Shown one piece after another: positions 32,887 through 49,298 of a stretch of DNA of 64,000 bases. This DNA is from Bacteroidota bacterium (GTDB taxonomy: Bacteria; Bacteroidota; Ignavibacteria; UBA10030): positions 589 through 64,588 of the forward strand of contig DATJYV010000029.1 of NCBI GenBank assembly GCA_035499415.1, in the 5' to 3' direction. A program made the position numbers and the translations under genes. Within the stretch, counting starts at the first letter, position 1. Every line of letters starts with the position of its first letter. The notes beneath the pieces are model-generated. The model saw only the letters and a list, made by a program, of their open reading frames with translations. It was not told the origin of the DNA and did no database searches.

Positions 32887-32890
32887 GTTG

Positions 32891-37100: not shown

Positions 37101-39318
37101 ACAGGAGCGGATAGATTCCGTTCCGCATGCATTCCTGAATGCCGAGTTCCACTTTCTTTGAAATCCACTCCGCGGATTCATCCCGCACCGGTCTGTTGGT
37201 GCTCTCGTCCCAGAACTCAAAATCAGTGGCGGTGATCCCTTTGTACTGATGCGTGATGCCGTGCAGGACGATCGTCGCGCCGTTCTTGACCATGTATTTG
37301 AGCGCATCGACAAGCTCCGGCTTGTCGGAGAGACTGACTCGAATGCCCTGGAAGGGGTCGACGTAAAACGGGATGACGCCGACAAGAAACGGAATCCCGC
37401 GGCTCGAAAGATGGTCAGCGACATCGCGAAGCTTGTTGGGGTCATCAAGGGGAGAAACGTCTTCAATGCGGATCAGTGCAGTGTGGGACTCCTCGTGCTG
37501 TTCGTGGAGGATGTCGTGGAGCATGTCCGCAAAAAGAAGGTAGCGATCGGTTTCCGTCGCCGAGGCAAAAGGCGAATCGGCCCAGTACATGAGATTCCCC
37601 GCCTGGATAATGTACGGAATCTCGACCCGCCGACGGTTCGAGTACGCCGTCCCGAGCACACGCGCACGCCGCCGGTTCAGGACGGTGACAAGGTTTGCGT
37701 TCGGTTCCCCTTTGGTGAACGTCTTCCCCTGGTAACGGACGACATCGTAAATGCTGACCGAATCGAGCTCCGTCACCTCGAAACCGTACTGTCTGCGGAC
37801 CCGCTGCGCGCGGCTGAATTCGGCGAAGCCGGTGTTCATCCAGATGACGGGCTTCGTCGTTTGCAGGATATCGTTCGTGAATTTTTCCGGCACCGGATTT
37901 ACGGCATTGAACCCGATGTAGAACGTGTAATCGAACCCGTTCATTTGCCCCGGTACATATTGATTGACGCCGATGACGACGTTGGACGTGTTGAAATGTC
38001 CCAGGAGCTGTTGCAGTTGCCGACCGTCCCCCATCGCGAGGTTGTTCAGGTCCGAGTTTCCTTCGACGACGACGAGCACGTGCTTGGGCGCATCCGGCGC
38101 CGCCCGCATCGGGCCAAAGAGGCCGCACAGAGACAAGCCGAGGGCGAGGACGATCTTGCGAATGCGCCGAGACGGACGGAATTCGCTCACTCTTCTGTTC
38201 GATAGCCCGAGATGCTTCTTGATGAACCCCGCGATCCGTTCGGCTGCGCGCCCATCACCATAGGGATTGACGGCCGACGCCATTTTCGCATACGCGGACC
38301 GGCTTTCAAGGAGTCGACGGGTTTCCCGGACGATTCGCTCCCGTGCGAGCCCCACCAGCCGTACGGTCCCGAAGTCGACAGCTTCGGGCCGCTCCGTGAC
38401 ATTTCGGAATACCAGAATGGGTTTTCCCAACGCCGGCCCCTCCTCCTGCACACCGCCGGAATCTGTCAGGATGAGGTACGAGCGCGCCATGAGGTTTACG
38501 AAGTCTTTGTAATCAAGAGGTTCGATGAGGATGATGTTCGGAATTCCGTCGAGGATCGGATAGACCGTTTCACGGACAAGAGGATTAAGATGAACCGGAA
38601 AGACAAAAAGATGGTCGCCGAACCTGGCCGCAATCTGCTTGACGGCCCGGCACGCCCCCTCCATGGGCGCTCCCCAGTTCTCACGCCGATGCATGGTCAA
38701 CAGGATGATTCTACGTCTGCTGGCAACCGCTTTCCGAACCGCCGCGCTGCCGAATTCGTGGTCGGCGCGCACCGCGAGGTTCAGCGCATCGATGACGGAG
38801 TTTCCGGTCACGTGAATCCGGTCCGGGTTGATGTGCTCACGCAAGAGCGCGCGCCGCGCGGTCTCGGTTGGAGCGAAGTGAAGGTCGGCCAACGCGCTCG
38901 TGAGCCGTCGATTAATCTCCTCCGGAAAAGGGTTCGCCTTGTCCCCTGTGCGCAAGCCGGCTTCCACGTGGCCGACCGGAATGCCACGATAAAAAGCGGC
39001 GAGACTTCCGGCAAACGTCGTTGTCGTATCGCCCTGGACAAGTACCATGTCGGGGTGCTCGCTCTGAAGCACCGGGTCGAGTGCGGCAATTGTCCTCTCC
39101 GTGAGGGCTGCGAGCGTTTGCCGGGGCCGCATGATATTCAGATCGTGGTCGGGGTGGATTCCAAAAACATCCAAAACCTGGTCGAGCATGTGACGATGTT
39201 GGGCCGTGGCGATCGAAACCACCGAAAACAGTTTGGGCTCTTCCCTGAGCCGGAGAATGACTGGTGCGAGCTTGATCGTATCCGGCCTGGTGCCGAATAT
39301 GACGGCGATTTTTCTCAC
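34192..39318 (-). CDS. 1708-aa multidomain membrane protein: UDP-GlcNAc 2-epimerase (WecB-like) - TM - polysaccharide-deacetylase-like (DUF2334/CE4-like) - GATase1/ThuA-like - TIM-barrel glycosidase-like - beta-sandwich domains - C-terminal TM
   Basis: GTG start. Residues 1-375 carry the non-hydrolysing epimerase motifs HVEAGLRTGD and DSGGVQEE. A TM helix (IVLALGLSLCGLFG) follows. Then come IRIEDVSPLDD and LHGITHQY (deacetylase-like), NLLIVPYGSV...DGGNLV (ThuA-like), and GIRAVHVAGWHDYP...ILVYAWLEPP...FDGVNIAELYFEGG (glycosyl-hydrolase-like TIM barrel). The C-terminus has Ig-like repeats and a TM (AIAIFGSAAVTSLFLMYLSL). The antisense ORFs were rejected. Confidence 0.7.
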   Translation of the reverse strand: MRKIAVIFGTRPDTIKLAPVILRLREEPKLFSVVSIATAQHRHMLDQVLDVFGIHPDHDLNIMRPRQTLAALTERTIAALDPVLQSEHPDMVLVQGDTTTTFAGSLAAFYRGIPVGHVEAGLRTGDKANPFPEEINRRLTSALADLHFAPTETARRALLREHINPDRIHVTGNSVIDALNLAVRADHEFGSAAVRKAVASRRRIILLTMHRRENWGAPMEGACRAVKQIAARFGDHLFVFPVHLNPLVRETVYPILDGIPNIILIEPLDYKDFVNLMARSYLILTDSGGVQEEGPALGKPILVFRNVTERPEAVDFGTVRLVGLARERIVRETRRLLESRSAYAKMASAVNPYGDGRAAERIAGFIKKHLGLSNRRVSEFRPSRRIRKIVLALGLSLCGLFGPMRAAPDAPKHVLVVVEGNSDLNNLAMGDGRQLQQLLGHFNTSNVVIGVNQYVPGQMNGFDYTFYIGFNAVNPVPEKFTNDILQTTKPVIWMNTGFAEFSRAQRVRRQYGFEVTELDSVSIYDVVRYQGKTFTKGEPNANLVTVLNRRRARVLGTAYSNRRRVEIPYIIQAGNLMYWADSPFASATETDRYLLFADMLHDILHEQHEESHTALIRIEDVSPLDDPNKLRDVADHLSSRGIPFLVGVIPFYVDPFQGIRVSLSDKPELVDALKYMVKNGATIVLHGITHQYKGITATDFEFWDESTNRPVRDESAEWISKKVELGIQECMRNGIYPLLWETPHYTASTLLYRTIAKYFSSAMEQRLAIENYEYSQMFPYVIKKDIYGQRIYPENLGYVPLDADKNVSRRAVQDIIRGAKANLYVRDGYAACFFHSFLDLDLLDELVEGIEKLGYTFADLTEQKQWVKTKDRVILAGTQDYTITLDDQYLLEAYFDTNGELTKRIVSDVRLKGAITKHITLNPGEFYKAEPTEFHEHEATLAEKVFHRAERAVETVFQSDQDWQEARPAVLWDYHVKGAAYNDQASFVSALRSVNLRVDTIFADQNLNLARYNLLIVPYGSVDSLKDEQYDAITKFVRDGGNLVTDGKNDLAEEFGIHYVQTTQRILHVEDHLFPEEPVAWRNWELVHKFDADEVDETFCSDEQSETPLAIGKRYGKGKVLFLGARFDPTSQEGYSHYPYFVEYVRSYFRLRPVVRRNGLDFFFDPGLRQTYSIEALVKRWVGQGIRAVHVAGWHDYPKLREYREYTYDYGRLIRVAHANGILVYAWLEPPQVSQKFWNQHPEWREKNYKGEDAAPMWRYAMALTDPRCVEAATDEYRRLLLAYDFDGVNIAELYFEGGRGYEDPRVFAPMHPSAQREFRKKYGIDLVKIFDPSSLYYWRENTAVRQEVDDYRVGKLTEVYEILLKMAQDVAASKPGFQTIVTGMDSFGSPELREYYGADMSEIIRLQHKYGFILQVEDPEKLWSTDPSRYASMGAMYQKFVSDSSRLSLDLNILSFRKKDVVTPFPTLIQTGVESYQLVRAASMGARKFTIYCEETVNPQDMMFFPYAAASRVVSSPTAAGYDFESPTSFNLKLPRTVTEISVDGAILSPFRDNEYLIPAGKHEVRFAAGAAGAFSTHALQTRIMSFTGNLEFVSYGMRSASLVYDSGPRAIVSLNAEPTGLTIDGQSVRPTVLKGNDCYSLLLPAGKHSVEIEVGGEFSYGINVTSLWSTTAIAIFGSAAVTSLFLMYLSLKVVGRKKPAARSARR

Positions 39319-39476: not shown

Positions 39477-39938
39477 TTACTCGGTGACCGTGTAGATTAT
39501 CTTGGGCGTTTCCTGTCCGAGGGTCGACCGGGGAAAATCATAGTCGACATCGATGGTACGGGCCGAAGAGGCATCGCCGCCCGGCGAGAGCGTAATCGAT
39601 TCCCCGCGGGCGACCAACTGTTGAACCGTGACGGTTTGCATTGATGTCCGGGTTTCAACCGTCATGCGCTGCGAGGTGCCGCGATCCAAATCAGCCGTGA
39701 CCTTTGTGGATTGGGAGGGTGACCCTTGAAGCTCGAGAGATGCCCGAACGCCTTCCACAGCGCCGGAGCCCGCAAGCGGAATTGCCCGGGCGTTGCTCAG
39801 AGGGTTGATGACGAGCCGATGAGAGATGCTGACGCCGAAGACCACCTGCTGAACTGCTGAAGAGCGGACCTGACCGTGCGAATCCTGGACGATTCCGGCG
39901 GTTAACATGATCAAGAGTATGGATTTTCGGCAGCTCAC
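39477..39938 (-). CDS. Small secreted Thr/Ser-rich protein, fimbrial-subunit-like (family member 1)
   Basis: 153 aa. N-terminal signal-like segment. C-terminal beta-strand IIYTVTE. 1-nt spacing to the neighbouring gene. Confidence 0.4.
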   Translation of the reverse strand: MSCRKSILLIMLTAGIVQDSHGQVRSSAVQQVVFGVSISHRLVINPLSNARAIPLAGSGAVEGVRASLELQGSPSQSTKVTADLDRGTSQRMTVETRTSMQTVTVQQLVARGESITLSPGGDASSARTIDVDYDFPRSTLGQETPKIIYTVTE

Positions 39939-39939
39939 G

Positions 39940-40497
39940 TTAGTCCGTCAAAGTCAAGGTTACGAGACGTTCGTCTCTGTCGATTCCACCGACGCCGGAA
40001 CCTGCGACAAAGGTGTATCGGATCGACTGGTCTCTGTCGCTCCCCCTGCCGATCCCGGTCACGACATCAACAGGTACGAGGGCCGCTGAAATGTCGACAT
40101 CGCCAACGCTGCTTGCGCGTCCCGACGCGAGGTTGATCTTGAGCCGGGTTCCACTCGGCATGCTTGAGTTGATCGAGGCAACGATTTTCACATTATCGAG
40201 ATTTGTCGCTATGCTGTATTGCGAATGCTGGTCGGAAACGCTTACGTCTTCGCCCGCGTAGACCTTTTGCACCATGAGAGGCGCAGGATTTCCCGTCACT
40301 CTCAGCACTGCTATCGGCCGGACCTCGACCGTTACGATCTGCTTCACGGAGCTGTGAATCGGCTGCGGGAATGCGACCGAAATGATTGACAGGAGGGAGA
40401 GCCCTATGAACGGAAGTCTCGTCAAGGGATGCGATCGATGAGGCAAGAACGCTAAAGATGAAGCGATTGTCAAGTTTGCAATTGGCGCCGGTGGCAT
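39940..40497 (-). CDS. Small secreted pilin-like subunit (family member 2)
   Basis: The C-terminal half (...SVGDVDISAALVPVDVVTGIGRGSDRDQSIRYTFVAGSGVGG..RLVTLTLTD) parallels the 46205/46758 paralogues. The signal peptide is LPFIGLSLLSIISVAFPQ. The start is an ATG (MPPAP) or a TTG further in. Confidence 0.45.
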   Translation of the reverse strand: MPPAPIANLTIASSLAFLPHRSHPLTRLPFIGLSLLSIISVAFPQPIHSSVKQIVTVEVRPIAVLRVTGNPAPLMVQKVYAGEDVSVSDQHSQYSIATNLDNVKIVASINSSMPSGTRLKINLASGRASSVGDVDISAALVPVDVVTGIGRGSDRDQSIRYTFVAGSGVGGIDRDERLVTLTLTD

Positions 40498-40681
40498 GTT
40501 CGATCTTGGGCGAATCATGACCACAGGAAGGACAACAACCATGCCCTCCCGCCAGCTCACGCCGCGAAGGAGCAACGTCGATAACTAATTGCCAATAAGG
40601 ATGTTGGAGAGAGGTGATTCGAAGGGCTGGAAGATGGAGGGATGATCGAATTGTAGTTTCTACAATTCCACAGCTATCAGC

Positions 40682-43600
40682 TCACTGCTCGTGCCCTACT
40701 GACTTGCAGATAGCTTCAGCGGCAGCGCGCGTATTGAATTTCCCGGTAATGACCCGGTAGCGAATCCCAAGGTTGGGGATGTTCACTCGGTCGACAAAGA
40801 CTTTGCGTCCCAGGATCTTTCCCATATGCGACCCTTGGGACTGTGCCTTGGCGCGCGTTTTCCAGGACGATATTTGGACCATAAACTTCTTTGAGGGCCT
40901 ATCGAAGAATATAAGGCAAGGACCGGGCTCGTCCATCTGCGCCTTCGGCTCCTTGACTTGTTCCTGGGGAGCAGGTTGCGGCGCGTTCTCGGGTTTTTCC
41001 GGTTCTATCACCCCTTGCTGGATGATTTTGATGATCCGTTTGCGTGGTAGAATTTTGAAATCGCCCTCCGCGTGAGTTCCGGCCTTCAGCTCCAGGGCAA
41101 GCGAATCCGGTTCCATGCGATGATAGTCGGGAATATCCCCCCCTTCAATTCTGAGTGTCCAACTTCCGGGTCGCAGGTCCCCGAAAACGTACCTCCCGCG
41201 ACTGTCCGTCACGCGTCTGTGAACCTCATCCCCCTGGTATAACGCCATGAAGACTCCGGCCCTTGCTTCCTTCTCGCGATACACCGTTGCACCCAAGGAA
41301 TCCGAAGGTGCCTCCTCGTTCACTTCATACAAAACGACGGTCCCCGATACCTGCGCACTTCGTGTGACGTTGATCTGAACAGGCGTTTCCTCTCCCCCAC
41401 GTACCTCGACTTCGAGCGGCATCGGCTGGAGCGTCACGCGGTCGAGCCCGATGCTCTCTTTGTCGACCTGAACATAGATCGGCCCCGGTTTCACGCCCGG
41501 CAGGTAGAATTCTCCGTTCCCGTCGGTCACTGAAGCCGATTCTCCCGCGTTCACGAGAATATTGGGCAAGCCCACTCCCGTCTCGCCGACGACCCGGCCC
41601 CGCAACGACCCGACCGATCCAATGCGGGCGATGGGGACGTTCAACGGAATGGCATATTCAAGAAGATATGCCGTTTCGCGCGGCGTCACCGCCGGCGTGA
41701 GAAGATTCTGCCGCGCCCGGAGCGTGATCTTGTGGTTGAAGGGGAAAATATGTTCAAGCGAGAATTCGGACAACGTGCTCGTTTGTGGCGTTGCACTGTT
41801 CACCCTGCTGCCAAAAATGTTGAATTGGACCTGCGTCGCCTCCCCAAAAAGCACCCATGCCGATAAGCTGGCCGAGAGCCGCTCTTCTACTTCTCCCGTG
41901 TAAATATCCTGGTCGTTTGAGTACTCGACGGAAGCGCTGTAGTTCTGCGCGGCCGTAGGACGCACCGACGAGAATAGGGATACGTGCTGGTATGGATAAT
42001 TCTTCAGCGCGAGCTTGTCCTCGATGACGCCGTATTCGGAATTCCCGTTGATACTCACGCCGGCGAAATTGAAACCGACCCGCATCTGAAACGTGTTTTC
42101 GCTTCGCCGGTACTTCGGATTTTCCAGCAGATCATCCTGTCCGTCGTAGTGGTAGTAGAAGGACACAAGGTCAAAGTACGAAAGGCCAAGCTGGTAGAAT
42201 TGGTCGCGGGGAGCGTATATTTGATTCGTGTCGCGCGCAAGATTCCGTTCTTCGTCCCGAAAATAGGTTTCGAGCCGGATCGTCTTCGAGATTTGATACG
42301 AAATGCTGCTTGATTTGAAGCTCAGGTCGCGGTAGTATCCTCCGAAGTTCGTCCCTGCATCGATATACCGGATATCGTAGGCGAGCGACGGCTCTGTGCC
42401 GTTGAATCGGAGGGCAACTGCGTCATCGCTCTTCCCTTCCATGGCACCGCGGCCGTATTCGACGTCGACGCTGGAGTTGGTGAATGGATGCGACAGTCCC
42501 CGTAACGTGTAGAGGTCGCTCGAGTATTGATCCCTTCGGTTGAGGTAGTTGGCGCCAAGCTCGTAATCGGGGGAAAATTGATAGCTCACGAACCCTCCGC
42601 CTTCATCCTGCCGCTGGTCGATCCATCGGGTTTTGTCGTACAATCCTCCCACAGAGAACCCGGCGACCGTCGTTCTTGCGCCCGCCCCTGTCGCAAACCG
42701 TCCGCTCTCGGTCAGGGGAGAAAGCGTATAGTTCATGTCCCCGAGCTGCAGTTCCGTCGCACTGTTCACGTACGACAGGTAATATTCATCACGCAAGCCC
42801 AGAGAGGAAATCGATTGCGTCTCCGGTCCCCGCGCGAGGAATGAAAATTTGTCGTCCCGTTTCTCTGACAGACTCCCATAGCCGGATACTTCGAACTGCG
42901 TGGACCGCGCATCCTGCTCGCCCACACCCCGAAGCTTGAGCTGAATGGGATACTCTACGAACTGTTCTTCTCCCTGCGATTCCTGGGAAACAACGTCGGT
43001 CACGACCGAGGCACTCACGGCAACCGTGGAGTCCTGCCTCGAAGTCGCGATGAGCTGAAGGGTTTGATGGACTTTTCCCGCCCCCTTGTCCGTTACGACG
43101 GAGACCGGAATTTCGCGCGTGTCGCGCGGATTGAGTGCGATAACGGGGTCCGGGACCTTCGTCGCGTATCCCTCCGAAGACCTGGCTTCAAGGGTTACCG
43201 TCACCGGAGTGTTTCCGGCGTTCGTCAGGTCGAACGTTGCCGTAAAGGACCGTCCCCCAATGACAAATCGGGGCGCGTCGATGGGTTCGATTTTCAGGAG
43301 GTAAATCGTCTCCACTTTCACGGTTATCTCGGCAGCGGCCTCGTGCGCGGGCGTTGCACGGTCTTTCGCCAGATACCGGAGACGATAGAGTCCCCCCGGT
43401 ACTTCTCCGGGAACTGCAAGGGTCAGAATCCGCGCGTCGTTGGCGCCGGCTTCGAGCGTGAACTGCGACTCGGGAGTCACCAGCCGCCACTTCGTCGGAA
43501 CCTGTACCTGGGGGTCGAAGGTCTGCGTGGAGCCGGTTCGATTCGTGACGACCACGCTGAAGGAAACGATTGAGCCCGGCTTGACCGACAAGATCTCACG

Positions 43601-43732
43601 CGTCCCCGGAACGACGTCAATCTCCCCCTGCGCGCGCGAGAGACGCAGCTGACCGGTCATTGCGACCGCGAGCCCCAGAAAAAAAAACATCCGGCCGTGT
43701 CTGACCGGATGATGTCGTGTCGGTCTCCTCAA
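40682..43732 (-). CDS. Large outer-membrane, usher-like assembly protein: N-terminal Ig-like (CARDB-like) domains, central beta-barrel-like region, two CarbopepD_reg-like domains, C-terminal SPOR peptidoglycan-binding domain
   Basis: 1016 aa. TTG start with a charged n-region, or ATG at M15. The central aromatic-alternating strands are GLSYFDLVSFYYHYDG and FQMRVGFNFAG. GRVVGETGVGLPNILVNAGESASVTDGNGEFYL and VSGTVVLYEV..VTDSRGRYVFGDLRPGSWTL are transthyretin-like folds. The C-terminal FMVQISSWKTRAKAQS...YRVITGKFNTRAAAEA is a SPOR motif. The printed sequence appears 1 nt short somewhere within this gene (the track length is a multiple of 3, hand-counting is not). Confidence 0.55.
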   Translation of the reverse strand: MRRPTRHHPVRHGRMFFFLGLAVAMTGQLRLSRAQGEIDVVPGTREILSVKPGSIVSFSVVVTNRTGSTQTFDPQVQVPTKWRLVTPESQFTLEAGANDARILTLAVPGEVPGGLYRLRYLAKDRATPAHEAAAEITVKVETIYLLKIEPIDAPRFVIGGRSFTATFDLTNAGNTPVTVTLEARSSEGYATKVPDPVIALNPRDTREIPVSVVTDKGAGKVHQTLQLIATSRQDSTVAVSASVVTDVVSQESQGEEQFVEYPIQLKLRGVGEQDARSTQFEVSGYGSLSEKRDDKFSFLARGPETQSISSLGLRDEYYLSYVNSATELQLGDMNYTLSPLTESGRFATGAGARTTVAGFSVGGLYDKTRWIDQRQDEGGGFVSYQFSPDYELGANYLNRRDQYSSDLYTLRGLSHPFTNSSVDVEYGRGAMEGKSDDAVALRFNGTEPSLAYDIRYIDAGTNFGGYYRDLSFKSSSISYQISKTIRLETYFRDEERNLARDTNQIYAPRDQFYQLGLSYFDLVSFYYHYDGQDDLLENPKYRRSENTFQMRVGFNFAGVSINGNSEYGVIEDKLALKNYPYQHVSLFSSVRPTAAQNYSASVEYSNDQDIYTGEVEERLSASLSAWVLFGEATQVQFNIFGSRVNSATPQTSTLSEFSLEHIFPFNHKITLRARQNLLTPAVTPRETAYLLEYAIPLNVPIARIGSVGSLRGRVVGETGVGLPNILVNAGESASVTDGNGEFYLPGVKPGPIYVQVDKESIGLDRVTLQPMPLEVEVRGGEETPVQINVTRSAQVSGTVVLYEVNEEAPSDSLGATVYREKEARAGVFMALYQGDEVHRRVTDSRGRYVFGDLRPGSWTLRIEGGDIPDYHRMEPDSLALELKAGTHAEGDFKILPRKRIIKIIQQGVIEPEKPENAPQPAPQEQVKEPKAQMDEPGPCLIFFDRPSKKFMVQISSWKTRAKAQSQGSHMGKILGRKVFVDRVNIPNLGIRYRVITGKFNTRAAAEAICKSVGHEQ
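43678..43687. repeat. Homopolymeric A9/T9 tract inside the 5' end of the usher-like gene (codons FFF)
   Basis: cagAAAAAAAAAcat on the plus strand, i.e. ATG TTT TTT TTT CTG on the coding strand. Unusual in a 60% GC genome. Coordinates approximate. Confidence 0.8.
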
Positions 43733-43741
43733 GGCAGTCTT

Positions 43742-44569
43742 TCAAAACTTCAGGACGTACTCTGCGCCGAAAATGTCGTCCCCTCCCGCATCGACCACGA
43801 CGCGCGCCTTGTAATTGCCGGGGGTGACGCTGCTGACGTCGATCGTCTGCCGCACGGATGTCCCTGGATAAATGCGGTATTTTACTCCCTCGAATTTACC
43901 GCGCGCAACCCCTTTCTCATCGAACAAATCGACGGTGACATCGGGACGCATGACGAGCTCCCCCGTATTTTCAATATCGATCTGGAGCGCCCTCTTCCCT
44001 TCTTCCTTCGCAACCAGCTTGGCGCCGATGAAATTAACTTTCTTCGTGCCGGTGTTCGCAATCGACGTGGCGATCTGGATCCCGTACCGGATCGTCTGCA
44101 TGATCCCCATCTGCGCCTTCGTGTCCTTTTGTCGAAGGGAAGACTCGGCGGAGCCCTTCTGAATTCCCTCGACCATCAGCATGCTCCAGTAGGTTCCAAT
44201 CAGGGGCTTCCCTGTCAGATCCTTGGGGACAGCCACCGAATAGTCGATCGCCATGGTGGACGCCGGCGGCAGGGTCAGGTAGGCGGGGCTGAAGGTCACC
44301 CACTTTGCGTTCGAGCGGGGCATCGACCCGGGATCACCGTAGTTATTCGTTCCGGAATAATGAAACGTGTAGTCCGTTTGATAAACCTTCGCTTCCTGCG
44401 GCTCGTTCGTGTCGTTCCGGATGATGATTGAACCCGTATACGTTTCGCCAGGCCTCGCCATCTTGTCCTGGCTGAGCTCGCCGATGACCGAAACTTGTCC
44501 CAAGAGAAAATTCGGGACAAGGAAAAGGAAAAAGAGGGCTGTTCGTTTGAGGAGGAGGGAGAGAGTCAT
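43742..44569 (-). CDS. Periplasmic Ig-fold protein, candidate chaperone-like partner of the small subunits
   Basis: Signal peptide MTLSLLLKRTALFFLFLVPNFLLGQ (the longest ORF starts at 44647). Two beta-sandwich-like halves. The N-terminal I.I.N....P pattern is reminiscent of PapD-like N-domains. Same reading frame as the usher-like gene, separated by TGA plus 3 codons. Confidence 0.35.
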   Translation of the reverse strand: MTLSLLLKRTALFFLFLVPNFLLGQVSVIGELSQDKMARPGETYTGSIIIRNDTNEPQEAKVYQTDYTFHYSGTNNYGDPGSMPRSNAKWVTFSPAYLTLPPASTMAIDYSVAVPKDLTGKPLIGTYWSMLMVEGIQKGSAESSLRQKDTKAQMGIMQTIRYGIQIATSIANTGTKKVNFIGAKLVAKEEGKRALQIDIENTGELVMRPDVTVDLFDEKGVARGKFEGVKYRIYPGTSVRQTIDVSSVTPGNYKARVVVDAGGDDIFGAEYVLKF

Positions 44570-44576
44570 AATGTTC

Positions 44577-45029
44577 CTATTGAGCGACGAGTGTGTAGGT
44601 GATTGTATGGACATCGTTGCCGAGTTCGGCGCTGTTGCCTTGTTCAAATGTTGCCGATGCGGAGTACTTCAGGGTCGCTGTGGCATTCGTTGTCCCCGTG
44701 GCGGGGATGTTCGTGATGAAATCGGCGGCAGCCATTCCGTTCGTCAATGTCACGGCAGGGGACGCAACTCCTTTCGTCGGACTCACGGCAACCACAGAAA
44801 GCGAAAAACTCTGGCCCGAGCAAACGGTTGCCACAGTGACCTTTGAGATGGCCGTTTGCTTCTTGTATGTCAAGGTGCAGGAAGAATTTGTCACAGCGGC
44901 GGGTTCAGAGCCCGCGACTCCGGTAGTTATAGAGAGCGTCTTATTACCTCCGGAAATGCTGATTTGTTGAGCTGAGGCGCTTGACAGAAGCAATGCGACT
45001 GCGGGTAAGAGGAGCAAGAGCTTGTGCAC
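44577..45029 (-). CDS. Small secreted pilin-like subunit (family member 3)
   Basis: GTG start gives the signal peptide MHKLLLLLPAVALLLSSASAQQ (the longest ORF starts at 45143). Two Cys. C-terminal strand HTITYTLVAQ. Confidence 0.45.
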   Translation of the reverse strand: MHKLLLLLPAVALLLSSASAQQISISGGNKTLSITTGVAGSEPAAVTNSSCTLTYKKQTAISKVTVATVCSGQSFSLSVVAVSPTKGVASPAVTLTNGMAAADFITNIPATGTTNATATLKYSASATFEQGNSAELGNDVHTITYTLVAQ

Positions 45030-45033
45030 GGCT

Positions 45034-45537
45034 TTATTGGGTCGCGATAGTGAACGTGATCGTGTGCGAATCCGTCCCCGTTCCCTGGGAGGCAAGGGCA
45101 ACGGCAGTATATTGGAGCGTGCAACTTCCTGTGCTTCGGCCAAGATTGGTCAGAAAATCCTGGGCGGTGTGTGTGATGGTGACCTGGGAAGCTGCGGTCC
45201 CGACCGTGGGGTTCAGGGCAACGAGTTTGAGTGCAAAGAGTTGTGTTGTCAGATTCGTTTGCACCGTAACCTTTTTGGTACTGCTGTTGATGCCCCATTG
45301 GAGGGATGTTGCCTGGTTAGTGGCGCTCATGGTGTTCTGGCCCGCCACGGCGTTGGCCCCCGTAATTGTGAAACTGACTGCGCCTCCGGTTACCGTCACG
45401 TTGGTAATCGTCGAAACCGTGACCGTGATCGTGTGGGACGCTGATCCATACGTCTGACCCTTGGCAAGAAACAGAGGAAGGATGAAAAATATCCCCAGCA
45501 ATATCGGGCGGTTGAATCGAGGTCGAAGGGATCCCAT
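45034..45537 (-). CDS. Small secreted pilin-like subunit (family member 4)
   Basis: Signal peptide MGSLRPRFNRPILLGIFFILPLFLAKGQ. Thr/Val-rich strands. C-terminus SHTITFTIATQ. The SCTLQYTAVALASQG motif is shared with member 5. Confidence 0.45.
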   Translation of the reverse strand: MGSLRPRFNRPILLGIFFILPLFLAKGQTYGSASHTITVTVSTITNVTVTGGAVSFTITGANAVAGQNTMSATNQATSLQWGINSSTKKVTVQTNLTTQLFALKLVALNPTVGTAASQVTITHTAQDFLTNLGRSTGSCTLQYTAVALASQGTGTDSHTITFTIATQ

Positions 45538-45610
45538 ATATTCGCGAAACACGTTCGGAGCCGGTGAAATATAGCCCTCTAATCGAGGATTATCAAGTTG
45601 AGACAGTGCC

Positions 45611-46120
45611 TCAACTCCCTGTAATAGTATACGTAATCGTATGCGTCTCGCTCCCGACCCCCTTTTCAAGGGTTGCGGCCCCCGTGAATTGAAGCGTGCA
45701 GCTTCCCGCCGAGCGACTCACCCCAACGATGAGGTCGTGAGTCGAGTTGTCAGAAAACACCACGTCGCTCGAACTGACCCCCGACCCTGAACTGACGTCC
45801 TGGGCCGACAAGCGAAGGTCGAATTTTGAACCCGACCGATCGCTTTCGGCCGTAATCTTTCGATTCTCCCCGTTACTCGTCCAGACCAACCTGGTAGCGC
45901 CGCTCATCGCGGGCGAAGGGTTGGAAGTTTCCGGGTCGAAATCGGTGATCTTGAGCGTAACCGGACCGCCTGAGATATCTATCGTGTTCAGTTCGAGGAC
46001 TTGAAGCCGAATCACCTGCGTGACCGAAGCACGCTGGGCGAAAAGTGTTGCGGACCCTGCTGCGAAAATCAGGAGGGTCTGCAGTGCTCTTCGTCTTATG
46101 TCGTGTCGTTTGGTGTTCAT
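45611..46120 (-). CDS. Small secreted pilin-like subunit (family member 5)
   Basis: Signal peptide MNTKRHDIRRRALQTLLIFAAGSATLFAQ. SCTLQFTGAATLEKG motif. C-terminus THTITYTITGS. Confidence 0.45.
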   Translation of the reverse strand: MNTKRHDIRRRALQTLLIFAAGSATLFAQRASVTQVIRLQVLELNTIDISGGPVTLKITDFDPETSNPSPAMSGATRLVWTSNGENRKITAESDRSGSKFDLRLSAQDVSSGSGVSSSDVVFSDNSTHDLIVGVSRSAGSCTLQFTGAATLEKGVGSETHTITYTITGS

Positions 46121-46204
46121 CGCTCGAGGCCTCGAAGATAGAAAAACCGTAGCGGCGACAGCTGGAAAACGCACGCTACGGCTTTCTCTCTCCTCCAGAG
46201 ATTC

Positions 46205-46705
46205 TTAGTTCGTCAACGTTAAGGTGACTACTTTTGCTGTGGATGAAAGCGTACCGGCAGAAGCGTTCGCACCGAATGAGTAGGTGATCATCTGGCCGGC
46301 ATCCGCGCCTCTGTTGATACCTGTAACGACGCTCAAAGCACTGCCGGATGTTGCGTTGGAGATATCGACCGCTCCGGCGCTGGTCCCTTTGGAGCTTGCA
46401 AGGTTAATCGAAAGCGAGTAACCGGACGAAAGGGCGGCATCGAGATTCGCCGTGATCTTCACCGTATTCGCGTAGTTCTGCGTGATGCTGTAGGTCGTTG
46501 AATTGTCCGTGACGCTCGTGAGGTTATCCGATCCAGGAGTTCCGGTCGTGATCGTGAGGGCTCCCGGGTTTCCCGACGTCGAGATCTTGTAGATTGCGTT
46601 GACGGCGAGGTTCAGATTCTGCGTTGCCGTGGCTTGTGCGACTGCCGACTCGACGAGCAGAGAGCTGGCGGCGACAAGCGCGAGGGTGATGATGGTCTTT
46701 TTCAT
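46205..46705 (-). CDS. Small secreted pilin-like subunit, candidate major subunit (paralogue A)
   Basis: 166 aa. Signal peptide MKKTIITLALVAASSLLVESAVAQA. The mature N-terminus ATATQNLNLAVNAIYKIS has an alternating donor-strand-like pattern. C-terminal VVTLTLTN. About 75% identical to the next gene. Confidence 0.5.
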   Translation of the reverse strand: MKKTIITLALVAASSLLVESAVAQATATQNLNLAVNAIYKISTSGNPGALTITTGTPGSDNLTSVTDNSTTYSITQNYANTVKITANLDAALSSGYSLSINLASSKGTSAGAVDISNATSGSALSVVTGINRGADAGQMITYSFGANASAGTLSSTAKVVTLTLTN

Positions 46706-46757
46706 GATGGTATCCGTTCGATGAAGGTTGAGGTTTGGTGGTTTTTCAATTCGGTTG

Positions 46758-47252
46758 TTAGTTCGTCAGCGTCAACGTTACGGTCTTGGCCAGCGATGAC
46801 AATGTTCCGGCAGAAGCCGTTGCGGCGAAGTTGTAGGTAATGACCTGGGCTGCATCCGCACCGCGCTGAATGTTCGTGACCATGTTGACGGCGCTGGACG
46901 ACGTCGCATTGGAGATGTCGACACTTCCCGCACTCGTGCCTTTGGTGCTCGCAAGGGTCAACTTGAGCGTATAACCAGCAGCAAGGGCTGCGTCAAGGTT
47001 CGCCGTGATCTTCACAGTATTACCATAGTTCTGTGTAATGCTGTAATTCGTTGATGCATCGGAAACGGACGTCAGGTTGTCGCTCCCGGCTGTGCCTGTC
47101 GTGATCGTGAGCGGGCTCGGGTTGCCGGACGTCGCTATTTTGTAAACAGTGTTGACTGCAAGCGTGACGCTCTGAGTCGCAGTGGCCTGAGCCAGCAGAG
47201 TCTGAACTCCTGCGAAACCGAGAAGAGAGAGGGTTGCGATTAACTTCTTCAT
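46758..47252 (-). CDS. Small secreted pilin-like subunit, candidate major subunit (paralogue B), first gene of the operon
   Basis: Start trimmed to MKKLIATLSLLGFAGVQTLLAQA, preceded by an AAGGAG RBS. The mature ATATQSVTLAVNTVYKIA...TVTLTLTN parallels paralogue A. Confidence 0.5.
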   Translation of the reverse strand: MKKLIATLSLLGFAGVQTLLAQATATQSVTLAVNTVYKIATSGNPSPLTITTGTAGSDNLTSVSDASTNYSITQNYGNTVKITANLDAALAAGYTLKLTLASTKGTSAGSVDISNATSSSAVNMVTNIQRGADAAQVITYNFAATASAGTLSSLAKTVTLTLTN

Positions 47253-47379
47253 GACGAACTCCTTTTGTCTGGATTGGTGGATCGTTTTGTTTCCCGTATA
47301 ACCATCAATCCCCATGCCAATCCAGTTTTTGAACGAAAAATGGCGTTTTCCCAGATACGATTTGTTTTTCGTGAATTGA

Positions 47380-47399: not shown

Positions 47400-47551
47400 A
47401 TAGGATTATGCTGTATTATAAAGCAAAAATGCCTCAATACCAAAATATGATAGAACTATTTGACTCTTTTTGAGACATGTCACCAGCTATCAGAGTAGCA
47501 ACATACCACAAATTCTGGCCATTATGTAATGATTTCTGCGGTCTGATCTCC

Positions 47552-47567
47552 TGGCATATCGATTGCT
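47552..47567 (+). promoter_or_regulatory. Sigma54 (-24/-12) promoter TGGCAT-N5-TTGCT
   Basis: cTGGCATatcgaTTGCTg gives the exact GG-N10-GC spacing. It lies about 36 nt upstream of a GGAGG RBS and the ATG at 47603. Confidence 0.55.
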
Positions 47568-47602
47568 GTCTTCAATTGAAACAAACTGCCGGAAGGAGGA
47601 TT

Positions 47603-47893
47603 ATGGCGCAGAGTAAGCTCAGAATCATGTCTCCGGAAGAAGCGGTACGGGAGTACCATGTTCGGACAGAAATCGCGACCCGGTTGTCGCACGAGTTCCG
47701 GACTCCGCTCACTTCCATCATCGGCTACGCAGAGACCATCATGTGCAGTCCGGACTTAACAGCAGAACAGCGAGACGAGTTTGCAGCTCTTATAAAGAAG
47801 GAGGGGGAACGGCTCGTGAGACTTGTGACCTTGATTGTCGAACAATCGATTCAGGGTTCGGCGTCACAGTCCGATCCATCCATATTTAAATGA
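47603..47893 (+). CDS. Free-standing HisKA (DHp) domain protein, 96 aa, with no ATP-binding domain
   Basis: MAQSKL...RLSHEFRTPLTSIIGYAETI carries a canonical H-box with the phospho-acceptor His, and the protein ends after the four-helix region. The longest ORF (from 47477) has no RBS. The stop lies 20 nt before the activator gene, in a different frame. Confidence 0.55.
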   Translation: MAQSKLRIMSPEEAVREYHVRTEIATRLSHEFRTPLTSIIGYAETIMCSPDLTAEQRDEFAALIKKEGERLVRLVTLIVEQSIQGSASQSDPSIFK

Positions 47894-47912
47894 CACGAAA
47901 GAGAGTCTTCCC

Positions 47913-49298
47913 ATGCCATCAAACCATCTCATATATATTGTCGACGACGAGACATCCATCGCCAAGCTGCTGGAAGTCTGGGTCAGCCAGAAATGGGGGT
48001 ACCGAGCGCGGCTCTTTTCGGACGGCGAAACGTGTCTTCATGCCCTCGATGAGGGGGCGGACCTGGTTCTTCTCGACCTGATGCTGCCCGGTATCGATGG
48101 TGTCGCCGTGCTCCAGGAAATCAAGCGCCAGAAGCCGGAGCTTCCTGTCATCGTGCTGTCCGCCCAGGCAAAGATCGAGGTTGCCCTTCAGACATTGAAA
48201 TTAGGCGCAACGGACTATTTCAGCAAACCCGTTGACCTCCCGAAGCTCGAAATCGGCATCAAGAATGCCCTGCGACTTGCGGACTTGACGCGGGAAGTCG
48301 AGCGTCTTCGTCAAGACGCCGAAACGAAGGTCCACTTCGATCATATTGTGGCCCAGAGCGGCGAGATGGCTGACGTTTTCAAGCTCGTCTCAAAGGTCAA
48401 GGAGAGCGACATTCCGGTACTTATTCTCGGCGAGAGCGGAACCGGAAAGGAGCTCATCGCCCGGGCCGTCCATTTCAACAGCGGCCGCAAAGACAGACCG
48501 TTCGTTGTCGTCAACTGCGCTTCGATTCCCAAAGACCTTCTCGAAAGCGAGCTCTTCGGGCACGAGCGTGGAGCGTTCACCGGCGCCATCCAGCGCAGGG
48601 TCGGAAAATTCGAACAGGCAAACGGAGGGACGATCTTCCTCGACGAAATTGGGGAGCTCGACCTGAGCCTGCAGTCAAAACTCCTGCGGGCGATTCAGGA
48701 AAAGCAGTTCAACCGAGTCGGGGGGAATGATGTGATCACGACGACCGCGCGTCTTATTTCCGCGACAAACCGGGATTTGCGTGAGGAAGTAAAGCAGAAG
48801 CGATTCCGGGAGGATCTGTACTTCCGTCTCTCGACGTTTCCCGTCATGCTCCCGCCTCTCCGGGAAAGAAAGTCGGATATCGTCCTTCTTGCCGAACACT
48901 TTCTGCGGCAGTTTTCCGAGGAGCAGAAGAAACCCCACCTGCGGTTTTCACGAAAGGCGCTCGACGACCTTTACAACTACCCGTGGCCCGGAAATGTGCG
49001 CGAGCTGGAGAATGCAATCCAACGGGGCGTCGTCCTTGCCGACGCGGCGGAATTGACCGAGCGCGAACTGCCCCTCTCAGTCCAGACATATTCGGGGTTT
49101 GAATCGACGGAGCGTCCCGCATTTTCGTTCGCCAAGAGCAACGACGTCGTCGTCCCTTTCGAAAAGTTGAAGGAGGACGCGATAAGGAACGCGCTGCGCA
49201 TCACCCACGGGAACATCGTCCAGGCGGCCCAACGCCTCAAGATCGGCCGGGCGACGCTTTACCGCTTGATGCAAAAATACAAAATCGAGGCGGACTAG
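47913..49298 (+). CDS. Sigma54-dependent response regulator (NtrC family: REC - AAA+ sigma54-interaction - Fis-type HTH)
   Basis: REC with LLDLMLPGIDG. Walker A GESGTGKE. GAFTGA motif (ESELFGHERGAFTGA). C-terminal HTH (IVQAAQRLKIGRATLYRLMQKY). Start trimmed to MPSNHLIYIVDDE (the longest ORF starts at 47835). Confidence 0.85.
   Translation: MPSNHLIYIVDDETSIAKLLEVWVSQKWGYRARLFSDGETCLHALDEGADLVLLDLMLPGIDGVAVLQEIKRQKPELPVIVLSAQAKIEVALQTLKLGATDYFSKPVDLPKLEIGIKNALRLADLTREVERLRQDAETKVHFDHIVAQSGEMADVFKLVSKVKESDIPVLILGESGTGKELIARAVHFNSGRKDRPFVVVNCASIPKDLLESELFGHERGAFTGAIQRRVGKFEQANGGTIFLDEIGELDLSLQSKLLRAIQEKQFNRVGGNDVITTTARLISATNRDLREEVKQKRFREDLYFRLSTFPVMLPPLRERKSDIVLLAEHFLRQFSEEQKKPHLRFSRKALDDLYNYPWPGNVRELENAIQRGVVLADAAELTERELPLSVQTYSGFESTERPAFSFAKSNDVVVPFEKLKEDAIRNALRITHGNIVQAAQRLKIGRATLYRLMQKYKIEAD

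What the first reader, a model, noticed from the sequence alone, without database searches (positions are those of the whole stretch)
40682..43732. Usher-like outer-membrane protein ending in a SPOR peptidoglycan-binding domain
The 1016-aa protein has a signal peptide, two N-terminal Ig/CARDB-like domains, a central aromatic-rich beta-strand region (GLSYFDLVSFYYHYDG, FQMRVGFNFAG), two transthyretin-like CarbopepD_reg domains, a Pro/Glu-rich linker (PEKPENAPQPAPQEQVKEPKAQ) and a C-terminal SPOR motif (FMVQISSWKTRAKAQS...IRYRVITGKFNTRAAAEA). SPOR domains normally target septal denuded glycan. Attaching one to a putative secretion/assembly pore would anchor the fibre machinery to the cell wall, possibly at division sites, which is an unusual architecture. 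The gene shares a reading frame with the upstream Ig-fold gene (TGA plus three codons plus TTG start).
Basis: partly seen in the sequence, partly recalled or inferred. Interest (0 to 1): 0.6.

Follow-up and report, generated by a model that had tools for sequence, protein, structure and literature searches.

The report
Cell-wall-anchored usher-like pilus pore
This gene encodes a large outer-membrane barrel protein that looks like the "usher" pore of chaperone-usher pili but carries a cell-wall-binding SPOR domain, and it belongs to a widespread, unannotated fibre-assembly gene cluster in environmental bacteria that sequence searches do not recognise as a pilus system.

Summary
ORF 40682-43732 (-) is intact: 3051 nt, 1016 aa, no missing base. 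It encodes a signal peptide, two Ig domains, a ~450-aa beta-barrel, two transthyretin-like domains, a disordered Pro/Glu linker and a SPOR domain (28.1 bits, cut-off 21).

No usher, PapD or pilin profile matches by sequence. Structure and context do point to a chaperone-usher-like system:
- The best PDB Foldseek hits of the model are full-length FimD ushers (E 3e-13).
- All 21 related loci plus the window keep the order subunit paralogs, chaperone-like, barrel, subunit.

The barrel family has 1324 clusters at 50% identity, from Ignavibacteria/Bacteroidota, Acidobacteria and Gemmatimonadota MAGs, all unannotated.

SPOR is an optional tail. Relatives carry LysM, OmpA-like, TPR or lytic-transglycosylase modules instead, or nothing. 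This favours periplasmic wall anchoring. Septal targeting is untested.

Also noticed: a conserved terminator-like hairpin with covariation lies inside the usher's signal-peptide codons.

Verdict: a new variant of a known kind. Fibre formation is inferred, not shown.

The parts
40682..43732 (-). Usher-like outer-membrane protein gene (1016 aa from TTG 43732; alternative ATG at 43690)
   Evidence: ORF; 99%-identical database copy; AF2 model with pLDDT 83.8; full-length FimD chains are the best Foldseek PDB hits.
43628..43732 (-). Signal peptide (aa 1-35; basic n-region, MFFFLGLAVAMTG core, SRA-QG site)
   Evidence: Read directly from the sequence. The model shows helix 15-25 with low pLDDT over 1-35. 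The cleavage site is inferred by eye.
42983..43627 (-). Two N-terminal Ig-like domains (aa 36-250; NEW3/FixG_C/CARDB-like), inferred to be periplasmic
41618..42967 (-). Beta-barrel translocation domain (aa 256-705; 26 predicted antiparallel strands, no plug-sized insertion)
41042..41611 (-). Two C-terminal transthyretin-like (CarboxypepD_reg) beta-sandwich domains (aa 708-897)
   Evidence: Pfam 46.9 bits in two stretches; present in 50 of 50 relatives; model.
40919..41041 (-). Disordered Pro/Glu/Lys-rich linker (aa 898-938)
   Evidence: pLDDT below 50 for 901-935; variable length and sequence among homologs.
40685..40918 (-). SPOR domain (aa 939-1016). It lacks the canonical last strand and has an extra N-terminal strand (PCLIFFD) and a conserved Cys940/Cys1009 pair.
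   Evidence: Pfam SPOR covers profile positions 1-63 of 76; secondary structure; FtsN comparison; cysteine co-occurrence (22 both, 4 neither, 3 one).
43678..43711 (-). Conserved terminator-like hairpin (CATCCGGTC...GGCCGGATG) followed by a T9 run, inside codons 8-18 of the usher-like gene
   Evidence: Scan. One copy per locus, always at this junction. 97.2% of cells pair, two stem pairs show compensatory changes, and 0 of 500 shuffles reach the covariation score. No Rfam family.
43742..44569 (-). Periplasmic chaperone-like protein (275 aa from Met27 of the 301-aa ORF); two Ig-like domains
46758..47252 (-). Candidate major fibre subunit 1 (164 aa, signal peptide, ATG 47252 preceded by AAAGGAG)
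   Evidence: paralog alignment; subunit HMM E 1e-61.
46205..46705 (-). Candidate major fibre subunit 2 (166 aa; 72% identical to subunit 1)
   Evidence: 560 homologs, those named in the listing all 'hypothetical protein'.
44577..46174 (-). Three further subunit paralogs (ORFs 45611-46174, 45034-45669 and 44577-45143; their true starts lie inside these ORFs)
39477..40575 (-). Two subunit paralogs downstream of the usher-like gene (39940-40575 and 39477-39938)
   Evidence: a post-usher subunit is present in all but two of the related loci that extend past the barrel gene.
47304..47319 (-). Sigma-54-type -24/-12 promoter candidate, TGGCATGGGGATTGAT, 52 nt upstream of the first subunit's ATG
   Evidence: There are 2 mismatches, and the whole-window count is not above chance, so this rests on position and on the neighbouring activator gene only.
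47835..49298 (+). Divergent sigma-54-dependent response regulator (receiver + AAA+ + HTH_8)
   Evidence: Pfam; the same gene flanks the cluster in L001 and L022.

Best explanation
The 1016-aa protein is the outer-membrane assembly and secretion platform of a very divergent chaperone-usher-type fibre system.

Proposed mechanism. Seven small Sec-exported beta-rich paralogs are the cargo. The 275-aa two-Ig-domain protein holds them in the periplasm in the way PapD-type chaperones do. The large barrel lets them cross the outer membrane and polymerise on the surface. The two N-terminal Ig domains and the two C-terminal transthyretin-like domains sit in the periplasm, in the positions of an usher's NTD, CTD1 and CTD2. 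A flexible ~40-residue linker lets the C-terminal SPOR domain reach the peptidoglycan glycan strands. This fixes the pore to the wall so that it resists pulling on the fibre, and may also place it at septal or polar denuded glycan.

Expression is probably driven by a sigma-54 promoter. A hairpin plus T-run inside the usher's first codons probably attenuates transcription, so that far less usher than subunit and chaperone is made.

Shown here: the domain architecture, the barrel, SPOR, the structural resemblance to FimD and to PapD-like chaperones, the conserved gene order, the alternative wall-binding tails, and the conserved hairpin.

Inferred: export through the barrel, donor-strand polymerisation, peptidoglycan binding, and attenuation.
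For: 1. Architecture: signal peptide, 2 Ig domains, 26 antiparallel strands, 2 beta-sandwiches, linker and SPOR; pLDDT 83.8.
4. In all 21 related loci and the window the order is 1-8 subunit paralogs, chaperone-like, barrel. A further subunit paralog follows wherever the locus extends past the barrel gene, except in L007 and L012. An Acidobacteria locus keeps the minimal set of subunit, chaperone-like, barrel, and a 422-aa protein with a subunit-like domain. This is the fim/pap gene order.
5. C-terminal tails of relatives: SPOR in 35 of 60, LysM in 4, TPR in 4, OmpA in 1, BamE-like in 1, and one SLT lytic transglycosylase. All are periplasmic wall or envelope modules. With an even strand count, both termini therefore lie in the periplasm.
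6. Porin_4 hits in 9 of 50 relatives. Weak CooC_C (CS1-pilus usher C-terminus) hits in 3 of 50.
7. The two most conserved loops of the chaperone-like protein (68-85, 150-160) have low confidence in isolation, as expected for segments that order only on a partner.
8. Precedent for a pilus outer-membrane pore positioned and anchored by domains that bind denuded glycan: the AMIN domains of PilQ. That paper lists AMIN, SPOR and LysM together as binders of denuded peptidoglycan (PMC5285504).
Against: - No sequence similarity to Usher, PapC_N, PapC_C, PapD or fimbrial subunit families. hhalign against E. coli FimD, FimC and FimA gives probabilities below 1%.
- The model has 26 strands rather than 24, and no plug domain.
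- The subunit fold was not predicted. The only hint of a pilin relationship is a non-significant CsuA/B match (E 0.36; hhalign probability 8.6%).
- No experimental data exist for any member; all come from MAGs.
Confidence: 0.6

Rival explanations
1. The cluster is a non-filamentous surface-display complex, a diderm counterpart of the Gram-positive WxL/WxLIP (Csc) clusters. The two-Ig protein stabilises small beta-rich proteins by inserting a hairpin. The barrel exports or holds them as a cell-surface complex or coat, not as a polymerised pilus.
For: - 21 of 24 family members give weak WxLIP_PGBD hits (best E 1.1e-4).
- WxLIP is proposed to insert a beta-hairpin into WxL domains (PMC10599100).
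- Having many paralogous small proteins plus one large protein with a C-terminal subunit-like domain resembles the small and large WxL proteins.
Against: - There is no C-terminal transmembrane helix in the two-Ig protein.
- The small proteins have no WxL motif and no WxL Pfam hit.
- WxL systems have no outer-membrane component.
- The WxLIP_PGBD scores are all below the Pfam cut-off.
- The FimD-like platform and the fim-like gene order fit a pilus better.
Confidence: 0.2
2. The protein is a structural outer-membrane-to-peptidoglycan tether or general porin, in the manner of OmpA, OmpM or SlpA. It has no dedicated secretion role, and the neighbouring small proteins are unrelated periplasmic or surface proteins.
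For: - A barrel plus a wall-binding domain is the OmpA/OmpM logic.
- Porin_4 hits occur in 9 of 50 relatives.
Against: - Most of the sampled relatives have no wall-binding tail, so tethering cannot be the core function.
- The barrel is invariably flanked by the chaperone-like gene and subunit paralogs.
- Four periplasmic beta-sandwich domains are conserved in all members and are unexplained by a tether.
- Expression seems regulated by a dedicated two-component/sigma-54 system, unlike housekeeping tethers.
Confidence: 0.08
3. The barrel is the outer-membrane exporter of the polysaccharide made by the adjacent genes (the UDP-GlcNAc 2-epimerase/DUF2334 fusion and the GT2 synthase), analogous to PgaA, AlgE, Wzi or PelB.
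For: - The polysaccharide genes lie immediately downstream on the same strand in this window.
Against: - The polysaccharide genes are absent next to the cluster in L001, L020/L021 and L022, whereas the subunit and chaperone-like genes are always present.
- The scores to these exporters are no better than to generic porins.
- Known exporters of this type use 16-18-strand barrels with TPR or other scaffolds, not this architecture (my own knowledge, not tested here).
Confidence: 0.05

Closest known systems
Fimbrial ushers FimD/PapC (chaperone-usher pathway; Pfam Usher PF00577, PapC_N, PapC_C)
   Same: - A large monomeric outer-membrane barrel flanked by a periplasmic N-terminal module and two C-terminal beta-sandwich domains.
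- Encoded directly after a two-Ig-domain periplasmic protein and after small secreted subunit genes, with further subunit genes downstream.
- FimD chains are the best Foldseek hits of the model.
   Different: - No sequence similarity.
- 26 predicted strands instead of 24.
- No plug domain inserted in the barrel.
- The N-terminal module is two NEW3/FixG_C-type Ig domains.
- The C-terminal domains are transthyretin-like CarboxypepD_reg folds.
- An extra linker plus a wall-binding domain, which to my knowledge no described usher has.
PapD-like periplasmic pilus chaperones (PapD, FimC, CfaA, EcpB, CsuC, SafB)
   Different: - No PapD_N or PapD_C hit, and hhalign to FimC gives 0.2%.
- Longer: about 250 aa mature against about 200.
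- Domain 1 is closer to WxLIP/DUF916.
- The donor strand and the cleft Arg/Lys residues were not identified.
WxL-interacting protein WxLIP (DUF916-DUF3324) of the Gram-positive WxL/Csc surface clusters
   Different: The organism is a diderm and the cluster has an outer-membrane barrel. The two-Ig protein has no C-terminal transmembrane helix. The partners have no WxL domain.
Peptidoglycan-anchored pilus pores: PilQ secretin AMIN domains, FimV/TsaP LysM (type IV pili)
   Same: An outer-membrane fibre conduit carrying, or partnered with, a domain that binds glycan strands. This positions the machine at division sites or poles and anchors it against force (PMC5285504).
   Different: The machinery is unrelated: a multimeric secretin against a monomeric barrel. 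The wall-binding module differs (AMIN against SPOR) and sits at the other end of the protein.
SPOR-domain division proteins (FtsN, DamX, DedD, RlpA)
   Same: The Pfam SPOR match is above the cut-off. The 'VQxxS' motif of strand 1 aligns with FtsN 'VQCGS' (residue roles are from my own knowledge of FtsN mutagenesis).
   Different: - Attached to an outer-membrane barrel rather than a bitopic inner-membrane protein or a lipoprotein.
- Lacks the last canonical beta-strand.
- Has an extra N-terminal strand and a different conserved cysteine pair.

Membership tests
Fimbrial usher (Pfam Usher PF00577 / PapC_N / PapC_C) | Significant match to the usher sequence profiles | tested here: not met
   No such hit at E <= 1 for the window protein. 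These profiles are not among the 25 most frequent families in 50 relatives. hhalign of the barrel profile against E. coli FimD gives probability 0.06%. No PDB sequence hit.
Fimbrial usher (Pfam Usher PF00577 / PapC_N / PapC_C) | 24-stranded beta-barrel translocation pore | tested here: inconclusive
   [not shown]
Fimbrial usher (Pfam Usher PF00577 / PapC_N / PapC_C) | Plug domain inserted between barrel strands 6 and 7 | tested here: not met
   No inter-strand segment longer than about 14 residues anywhere in 258-703 of the model.
Fimbrial usher (Pfam Usher PF00577 / PapC_N / PapC_C) | Periplasmic N-terminal domain plus two C-terminal beta-sandwich domains | tested here: inconclusive
   The same layout is present: two Ig domains at the N-terminus and two transthyretin-like domains at the C-terminus. 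The folds and families differ. Only 3 of 50 relatives give a weak CooC_C hit (E 0.0047).
Fimbrial usher (Pfam Usher PF00577 / PapC_N / PapC_C) | Operon with a periplasmic chaperone and several pilin subunit genes | tested here: met
   The order subunits, chaperone-like, barrel holds in all 21 related loci and the window, and a further subunit follows in most. It matches fimA-I-C-D-F-G-H.
PapD-like pilus chaperone (PF00345/PF02753) | Sequence match to PapD_N/PapD_C | tested here: not met
   No hit at E <= 1 in 24 members. hhalign against FimC gives 0.19%. No PDB sequence hit.
PapD-like pilus chaperone (PF00345/PF02753) | Two Ig-like domains with a PapD-type fold | tested here: met
   [not shown]
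PapD-like pilus chaperone (PF00345/PF02753) | Donor strand with alternating hydrophobic residues, and cleft Arg/Lys residues that bind the subunit C-terminus | not testable with these tools
   This needs a chaperone-subunit complex model. Only the invariant but low-confidence loops 68-85 and 150-160 were seen.
SPOR domain (PF05036) | Profile match above the gathering score | tested here: met
   28.1 bits in the full protein and 32.5 bits for the tail alone, against a cut-off of 21. 35 of 60 long tails of relatives match.
SPOR domain (PF05036) | Complete beta-alpha-beta-beta-alpha-beta fold with a four-stranded sheet | tested here: inconclusive
   The match stops at profile position 63 of 76, and the protein ends 11 residues before FtsN's last strand. 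The model adds a conserved strand 940-944 upstream that may replace it. The geometry was not inspected.
SPOR domain (PF05036) | Binding to denuded glycan strands and septal localisation | not testable with these tools
   Only the VQxxS motif shared with FtsN was seen.
WxLIP (DUF916-DUF3324-TM) of WxL clusters | WxLIP_PGBD / WxLIP_HBD profile matches above the cut-off | tested here: inconclusive
   [not shown]
WxLIP (DUF916-DUF3324-TM) of WxL clusters | C-terminal transmembrane helix and WxL-domain partner proteins | tested here: not met
   The protein ends with the second Ig domain. No WxL hit appears in 7 window paralogs or in 23 diverse subunits.
Chaperone-usher pilin subunits (Fimbrial PF00419, SCPU/Csu type) | Sequence match to a pilin family | tested here: not met
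   No Pfam hit. hhalign against FimA gives 0.17%. CsuA/B is matched only at E 0.36 and hhalign 8.6%.
Chaperone-usher pilin subunits (Fimbrial PF00419, SCPU/Csu type) | Incomplete Ig fold completed by a neighbour's N-terminal donor strand | not tested
Only the sequence pattern is available: a conserved N-terminal alternating segment (QSVTLAVNTVYKI) and a C-terminal strand (TVTLTLTN).

The most novel reading that the evidence does not exclude
This is an unrecognised, phylum-spanning lineage of chaperone-usher-type fibre machines, found in Ignavibacteria/Bacteroidota, Acidobacteriota and Gemmatimonadota. All three components have diverged beyond sequence recognition from the classical, alternative and archaic pathways. 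Its chaperone is the missing link to the Gram-positive WxLIP/WxL surface clusters. Its ushers, unlike any described usher, are wired to the cell wall through interchangeable SPOR, LysM, OmpA or SLT modules. The SPOR and LysM versions would pre-position the pilus platform on denuded septal glycan, so that fibres emerge at new poles.
Probability: 0.3. Interest if true: 0.8.

Novelty: new variant of a known kind. Interest (0 to 1): 0.65.

Why it matters
Chaperone-usher pili are the best-understood fibre assembly machines of Gram-negative bacteria. Their known diversity is defined by one usher sequence family, studied mostly in Proteobacteria.

A structurally usher-like, sequence-invisible system would extend the pathway's evolutionary range to abundant soil and sediment phyla. 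The barrel family has more than 1300 clusters at 50% identity, and none of the proteins whose source annotation was displayed carries a functional name.

The system would also give a natural experiment in how much of the usher (plug, 24 strands, specific NTD and CTDs) is really required. It would link the diderm machinery to the Gram-positive WxL/WxLIP surface complexes.

The wall-binding tails raise a testable idea that has precedent only in type IV pili: that a pilus platform can be anchored to peptidoglycan and perhaps positioned by it.

The conserved hairpin inside the usher's signal-peptide codons is a compact candidate device for setting subunit-to-usher stoichiometry.

Tried and rejected
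- Foldseek against AFDB50 was not available on the machine.
- Sequence routes to known families all failed. phmmer and profile searches against PDB sequences found nothing for the full protein, the barrel or the chaperone-like protein. NCBIfam gave only a sub-threshold 'choice-of-anchor T' hit for the Ig region. hhalign against E. coli FimD, FimC and FimA gave nothing.
- I tested whether the usher's two N-terminal Ig domains are a fused copy of the chaperone-like protein. hhalign gave a collinear alignment at only 1.5% probability, so I do not claim this.
- I suspected LysM in the tail of P0016 by eye. Pfam did not report it at E <= 0.1, although LysM is detected in four other relatives' tails.
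- I considered programmed read-through or a chaperone-usher fusion because of the shared frame. I rejected it: the frame is shared in only about 10 of 21 loci.
- I considered the polysaccharide-exporter reading. I rejected it on synteny.
- Rfam has no family at the hairpin or anywhere in 39-48 kb.
- The sigma-54 pattern search is not enriched over chance in the window as a whole (25 found, 20.5 expected). Only the position of the single site at 47304-47319 is suggestive.
- Five full-text literature searches found no description of this family or of a SPOR-bearing usher.
- Model coordinates are not exposed to the Python sandbox. I therefore could not check barrel closure, lumen diameter or the position of the domains relative to the membrane.


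Full report
**Observation**

The ORF is real and intact: 40682..43732 on the minus strand, TTG start, 1016 aa. Its 3051 nt equal 1017 codons, so no base is missing.

Pfam detects:
- SPOR at 946-1011, 28.1 bits against a gathering score of 21.
- CarboxypepD_reg in two stretches, 46.9 bits against 32.3.
- A FixG_C Ig fold at 166-238, 29.8 bits against 25.6.
- NEW3/NPCBM_assoc at 51-122, 22.9 bits, just below threshold.
- Nothing between residues 250 and 705.

A 99%-identical database copy is annotated from Met15 (ATG 43690).

**Structure of the protein**

I built an alignment of 18 homologs. It gave an AlphaFold2 model with mean pLDDT 83.8. The model contains:
- an N-terminal helix (the signal peptide);
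- two beta-sandwiches (38-249);
- 26 consecutive antiparallel strands (258-703), with no inter-strand insertion longer than about 14 residues;
- two more beta-sandwiches (708-896);
- a disordered linker (901-935);
- a beta-beta-alpha-beta-beta-alpha unit (940-1015).

Foldseek on the whole model does. Full-length FimD chains take ranks 1-6, 8 and 9 (E 3e-13 to 5e-11, 750-800 aligned columns). PapC scores 2e-7 and other barrels 5e-7 or worse. TM-scores are low (0.26 and 0.36), as expected for multi-domain proteins with different domain orientations.

Sequence methods see none of this. There are no Usher, PapC_N or PapC_C hits, no PDB sequence hits, and hhalign against E. coli FimD gives probability 0.06%.

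**Family size**

The first word-indexed search returned only 18 relatives, because its candidate list was saturated. An exhaustive HMMER search with a barrel-only profile found 1324 clusters at 50% identity with E <= 1e-3, of which 708 have E <= 1e-30.

The usual layout is about 250 aa, then a 455-aa barrel, then about 200-240 aa. In a sample of 50 diverse members:
- all have CarboxypepD_reg;
- 36 have NEW3 and 31 have FixG_C;
- 9 hit the Gram-negative Porin_4 profile (best 4e-8), which is independent sequence support for the barrel;
- 3 hit CooC_C, the C-terminus of the CS1-pilus usher, weakly (E 0.0047).

Named members are 'hypothetical' or 'NEW3 domain-containing' proteins. They come from Ignavibacteria, Bacteroidota, Acidobacteria and Longimicrobiales (Gemmatimonadota) MAGs. 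The window itself matches a 'MAG TPA: Bacteroidota bacterium' contig.

**Context**

Seven small proteins around the gene are paralogs. All are beta-rich with Sec-type signal peptides, and the first two are 72% identical.

By sequence it has no PapD hit, and hhalign to FimC gives 0.19%. However, 21 of 24 members give weak WxLIP_PGBD hits (best E 1.1e-4). Its two most invariant loops (68-85, 150-160) are the low-confidence parts of the model. That would fit segments that fold on a partner.

I searched six-frame ORFs of all 21 related loci and the window with HMMs for the three families. Every one shows the same order: 1-8 subunit paralogs, chaperone-like, barrel. A further subunit paralog follows wherever the locus extends past the barrel gene, except in L007 and L012. 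An Acidobacteria locus has the minimal set: a 188-aa subunit, a 266-aa chaperone-like protein, a 934-aa barrel protein, and a 422-aa protein with a Gly_rich_2 region plus a subunit-like domain. This is the order of fimA-I-C-D-F-G-H.

A divergent sigma-54 response regulator flanks the cluster here and in L001 and L022. A -24/-12-like site sits 52 nt upstream of the first subunit's ATG. That site has 2 mismatches, and the window-wide count is not above chance.

**The SPOR tail**

SPOR is conserved in the 15 closest homologs but absent from the more distant ones. Among 60 relatives with a C-terminal extension beyond the two sandwich domains, Pfam finds SPOR in 35 (up to three copies), LysM in 4, TPR in 4, OmpA in 1 and a BamE-like domain in 1. 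One further member carries an SLT lytic transglycosylase. In the sample of 50, 12 have SPOR.

The tail is therefore an interchangeable periplasmic wall or envelope module. This places the C-terminus in the periplasm and, with an even number of strands, the N-terminal Ig domains too. That is the usher topology.

The domain itself is a variant:
- The Pfam match ends at profile position 63 of 76, and the protein stops 11 residues before FtsN's last strand.
- A conserved upstream strand, PC[LI][IV]x[FY]D, is predicted at 940-944.
- Cys940 and Cys1009 co-occur: 22 tails have both, 4 have neither and 3 have one. This suggests a periplasmic disulfide.
- The VQxxS motif of strand 1 matches FtsN's VQCGS.

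Whether SPOR targets the septum here is untested. The PilQ AMIN precedent shows that a pilus outer-membrane pore can be positioned this way, and that paper lists AMIN, SPOR and LysM together as binders of denuded glycan (PMC5285504).

**Side finding at the chaperone-usher junction**

A terminator-like hairpin, CATCCGGTC-AGACAC-GGCCGGATG, followed by T9 lies at 43711-43678. This is inside codons 8-18 of the usher-like gene.

The same element occurs once per locus, always at this junction. In 18 loci, 97.2% of stem cells pair, and two stem pairs show compensatory changes (UA to CG). None of 500 shuffles reaches the covariation score.

Changes in the 5' arm are mostly synonymous (GTC/GTT), while the paired 3'-arm codon switches between Gly, Asp and Asn. 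This points to selection on the RNA. The apparently conserved peptide 'RHxPVRxxRIFF' is largely this hairpin plus the T-run.

I infer a translation-sensitive attenuator, or a 3'-end stabiliser, that keeps usher expression below subunit and chaperone expression. That inference is untested. Rfam has nothing here.

**Interpretation**

The best reading (about 0.6) is an outer-membrane assembly platform of a very divergent chaperone-usher-type fibre system, anchored to peptidoglycan by SPOR. It is not a member of the usher family: the sequence test and the plug test both fail, and the strand count differs. It works like one on the evidence of architecture, best structural matches, the partner's fold and the operon order.

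The rivals are:
- A WxL/WxLIP-like non-filamentous surface complex (about 0.2). The WxLIP similarity supports it. The missing transmembrane helix, the missing WxL domains and the presence of the barrel weaken it.
- A plain outer-membrane-to-wall tether (about 0.08). Most relatives lack any wall-binding tail.
- An exopolysaccharide exporter for the adjacent epimerase/DUF2334/GT2 genes (about 0.05). Those genes are not syntenic elsewhere.

The largest gap is the subunits. Their fold was not predicted, and their only link to pilins is a non-significant CsuA/B match.

**Novelty**

Five full-text searches found no description of this family or of an usher carrying a wall-binding domain. I rate it a new variant of a known kind, with interest 0.65.

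Noticed in passing
window 43678-43711 (-); also L001 6238-6264, L004 9265-9291, L013 9268-9294 and 12 other loci: A conserved intrinsic-terminator-like hairpin plus a T8-9 run is embedded in the signal-peptide codons of the usher-like gene. There is one copy per locus, always at the chaperone-usher junction, and two stem pairs show compensatory changes. It is probably an attenuator that sets usher stoichiometry. No Rfam family matches.
   Followed up: yes
window 40685-40918 (-) and the tails of relatives (alignment A4): The SPOR domains of this family lack the canonical last beta-strand. They have an extra conserved N-terminal strand, PC[LI][IV]x[FY]D, and a co-occurring cysteine pair (Cys940/Cys1009; 22 both, 4 neither, 3 one). 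This suggests a strand-swapped, disulfide-stapled SPOR variant.
   Followed up: partly
window 47304-47319 (-), 47477-47893 (+), 47835-49298 (+): A sigma-54-type -24/-12 candidate, TGGCATGGGGATTGAT, lies 52 nt upstream of the first subunit gene. A divergent sigma-54 response regulator follows. The small ORF before it has only a HisKA-like segment, whereas relatives (L001, L022) encode a full 235-251-aa histidine kinase there.
   Followed up: partly
window 31795-39318 (-): Directly downstream of the fibre cluster lies a 1708-aa fusion protein (UDP-GlcNAc 2-epimerase + DUF2334 deacetylase-like + GH42M-like domain, with a hydrophobic C-terminus). A GT2 synthase (32891-34312) and a hybrid histidine kinase (31795-32946) follow. 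This is a probable exopolysaccharide locus, adjacent to the cluster only in this genome.
   Followed up: partly
[not shown]
   Followed up: partly
L020 12792-14060 (Acidobacteria MAG): Downstream of the barrel gene is a 422-aa protein with a Gly_rich_2 region and a subunit-like domain (HMM E 5e-7). It is arranged like a two-domain tip adhesin.
   Followed up: no
window 46205-47252 (-): Two tandem candidate major-subunit genes are 72% identical to each other, and each is 70-80% identical to hundreds of metagenomic homologs. That is unusually high conservation for a surface fibre subunit.
   Followed up: no
relatives P0249 and P0156 (not in the window): One family member carries an SLT lytic-transglycosylase domain (E 1.6e-25). 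Another carries three tandem SPOR domains at the C-terminus.
   Followed up: no
window 12883-15903 (-): A SusC-like TonB-dependent receptor (CarboxypepD_reg + Plug + barrel, 1006 aa). It has the same length class as the finding but is unrelated to it, and is typical of Bacteroidota.
   Followed up: no
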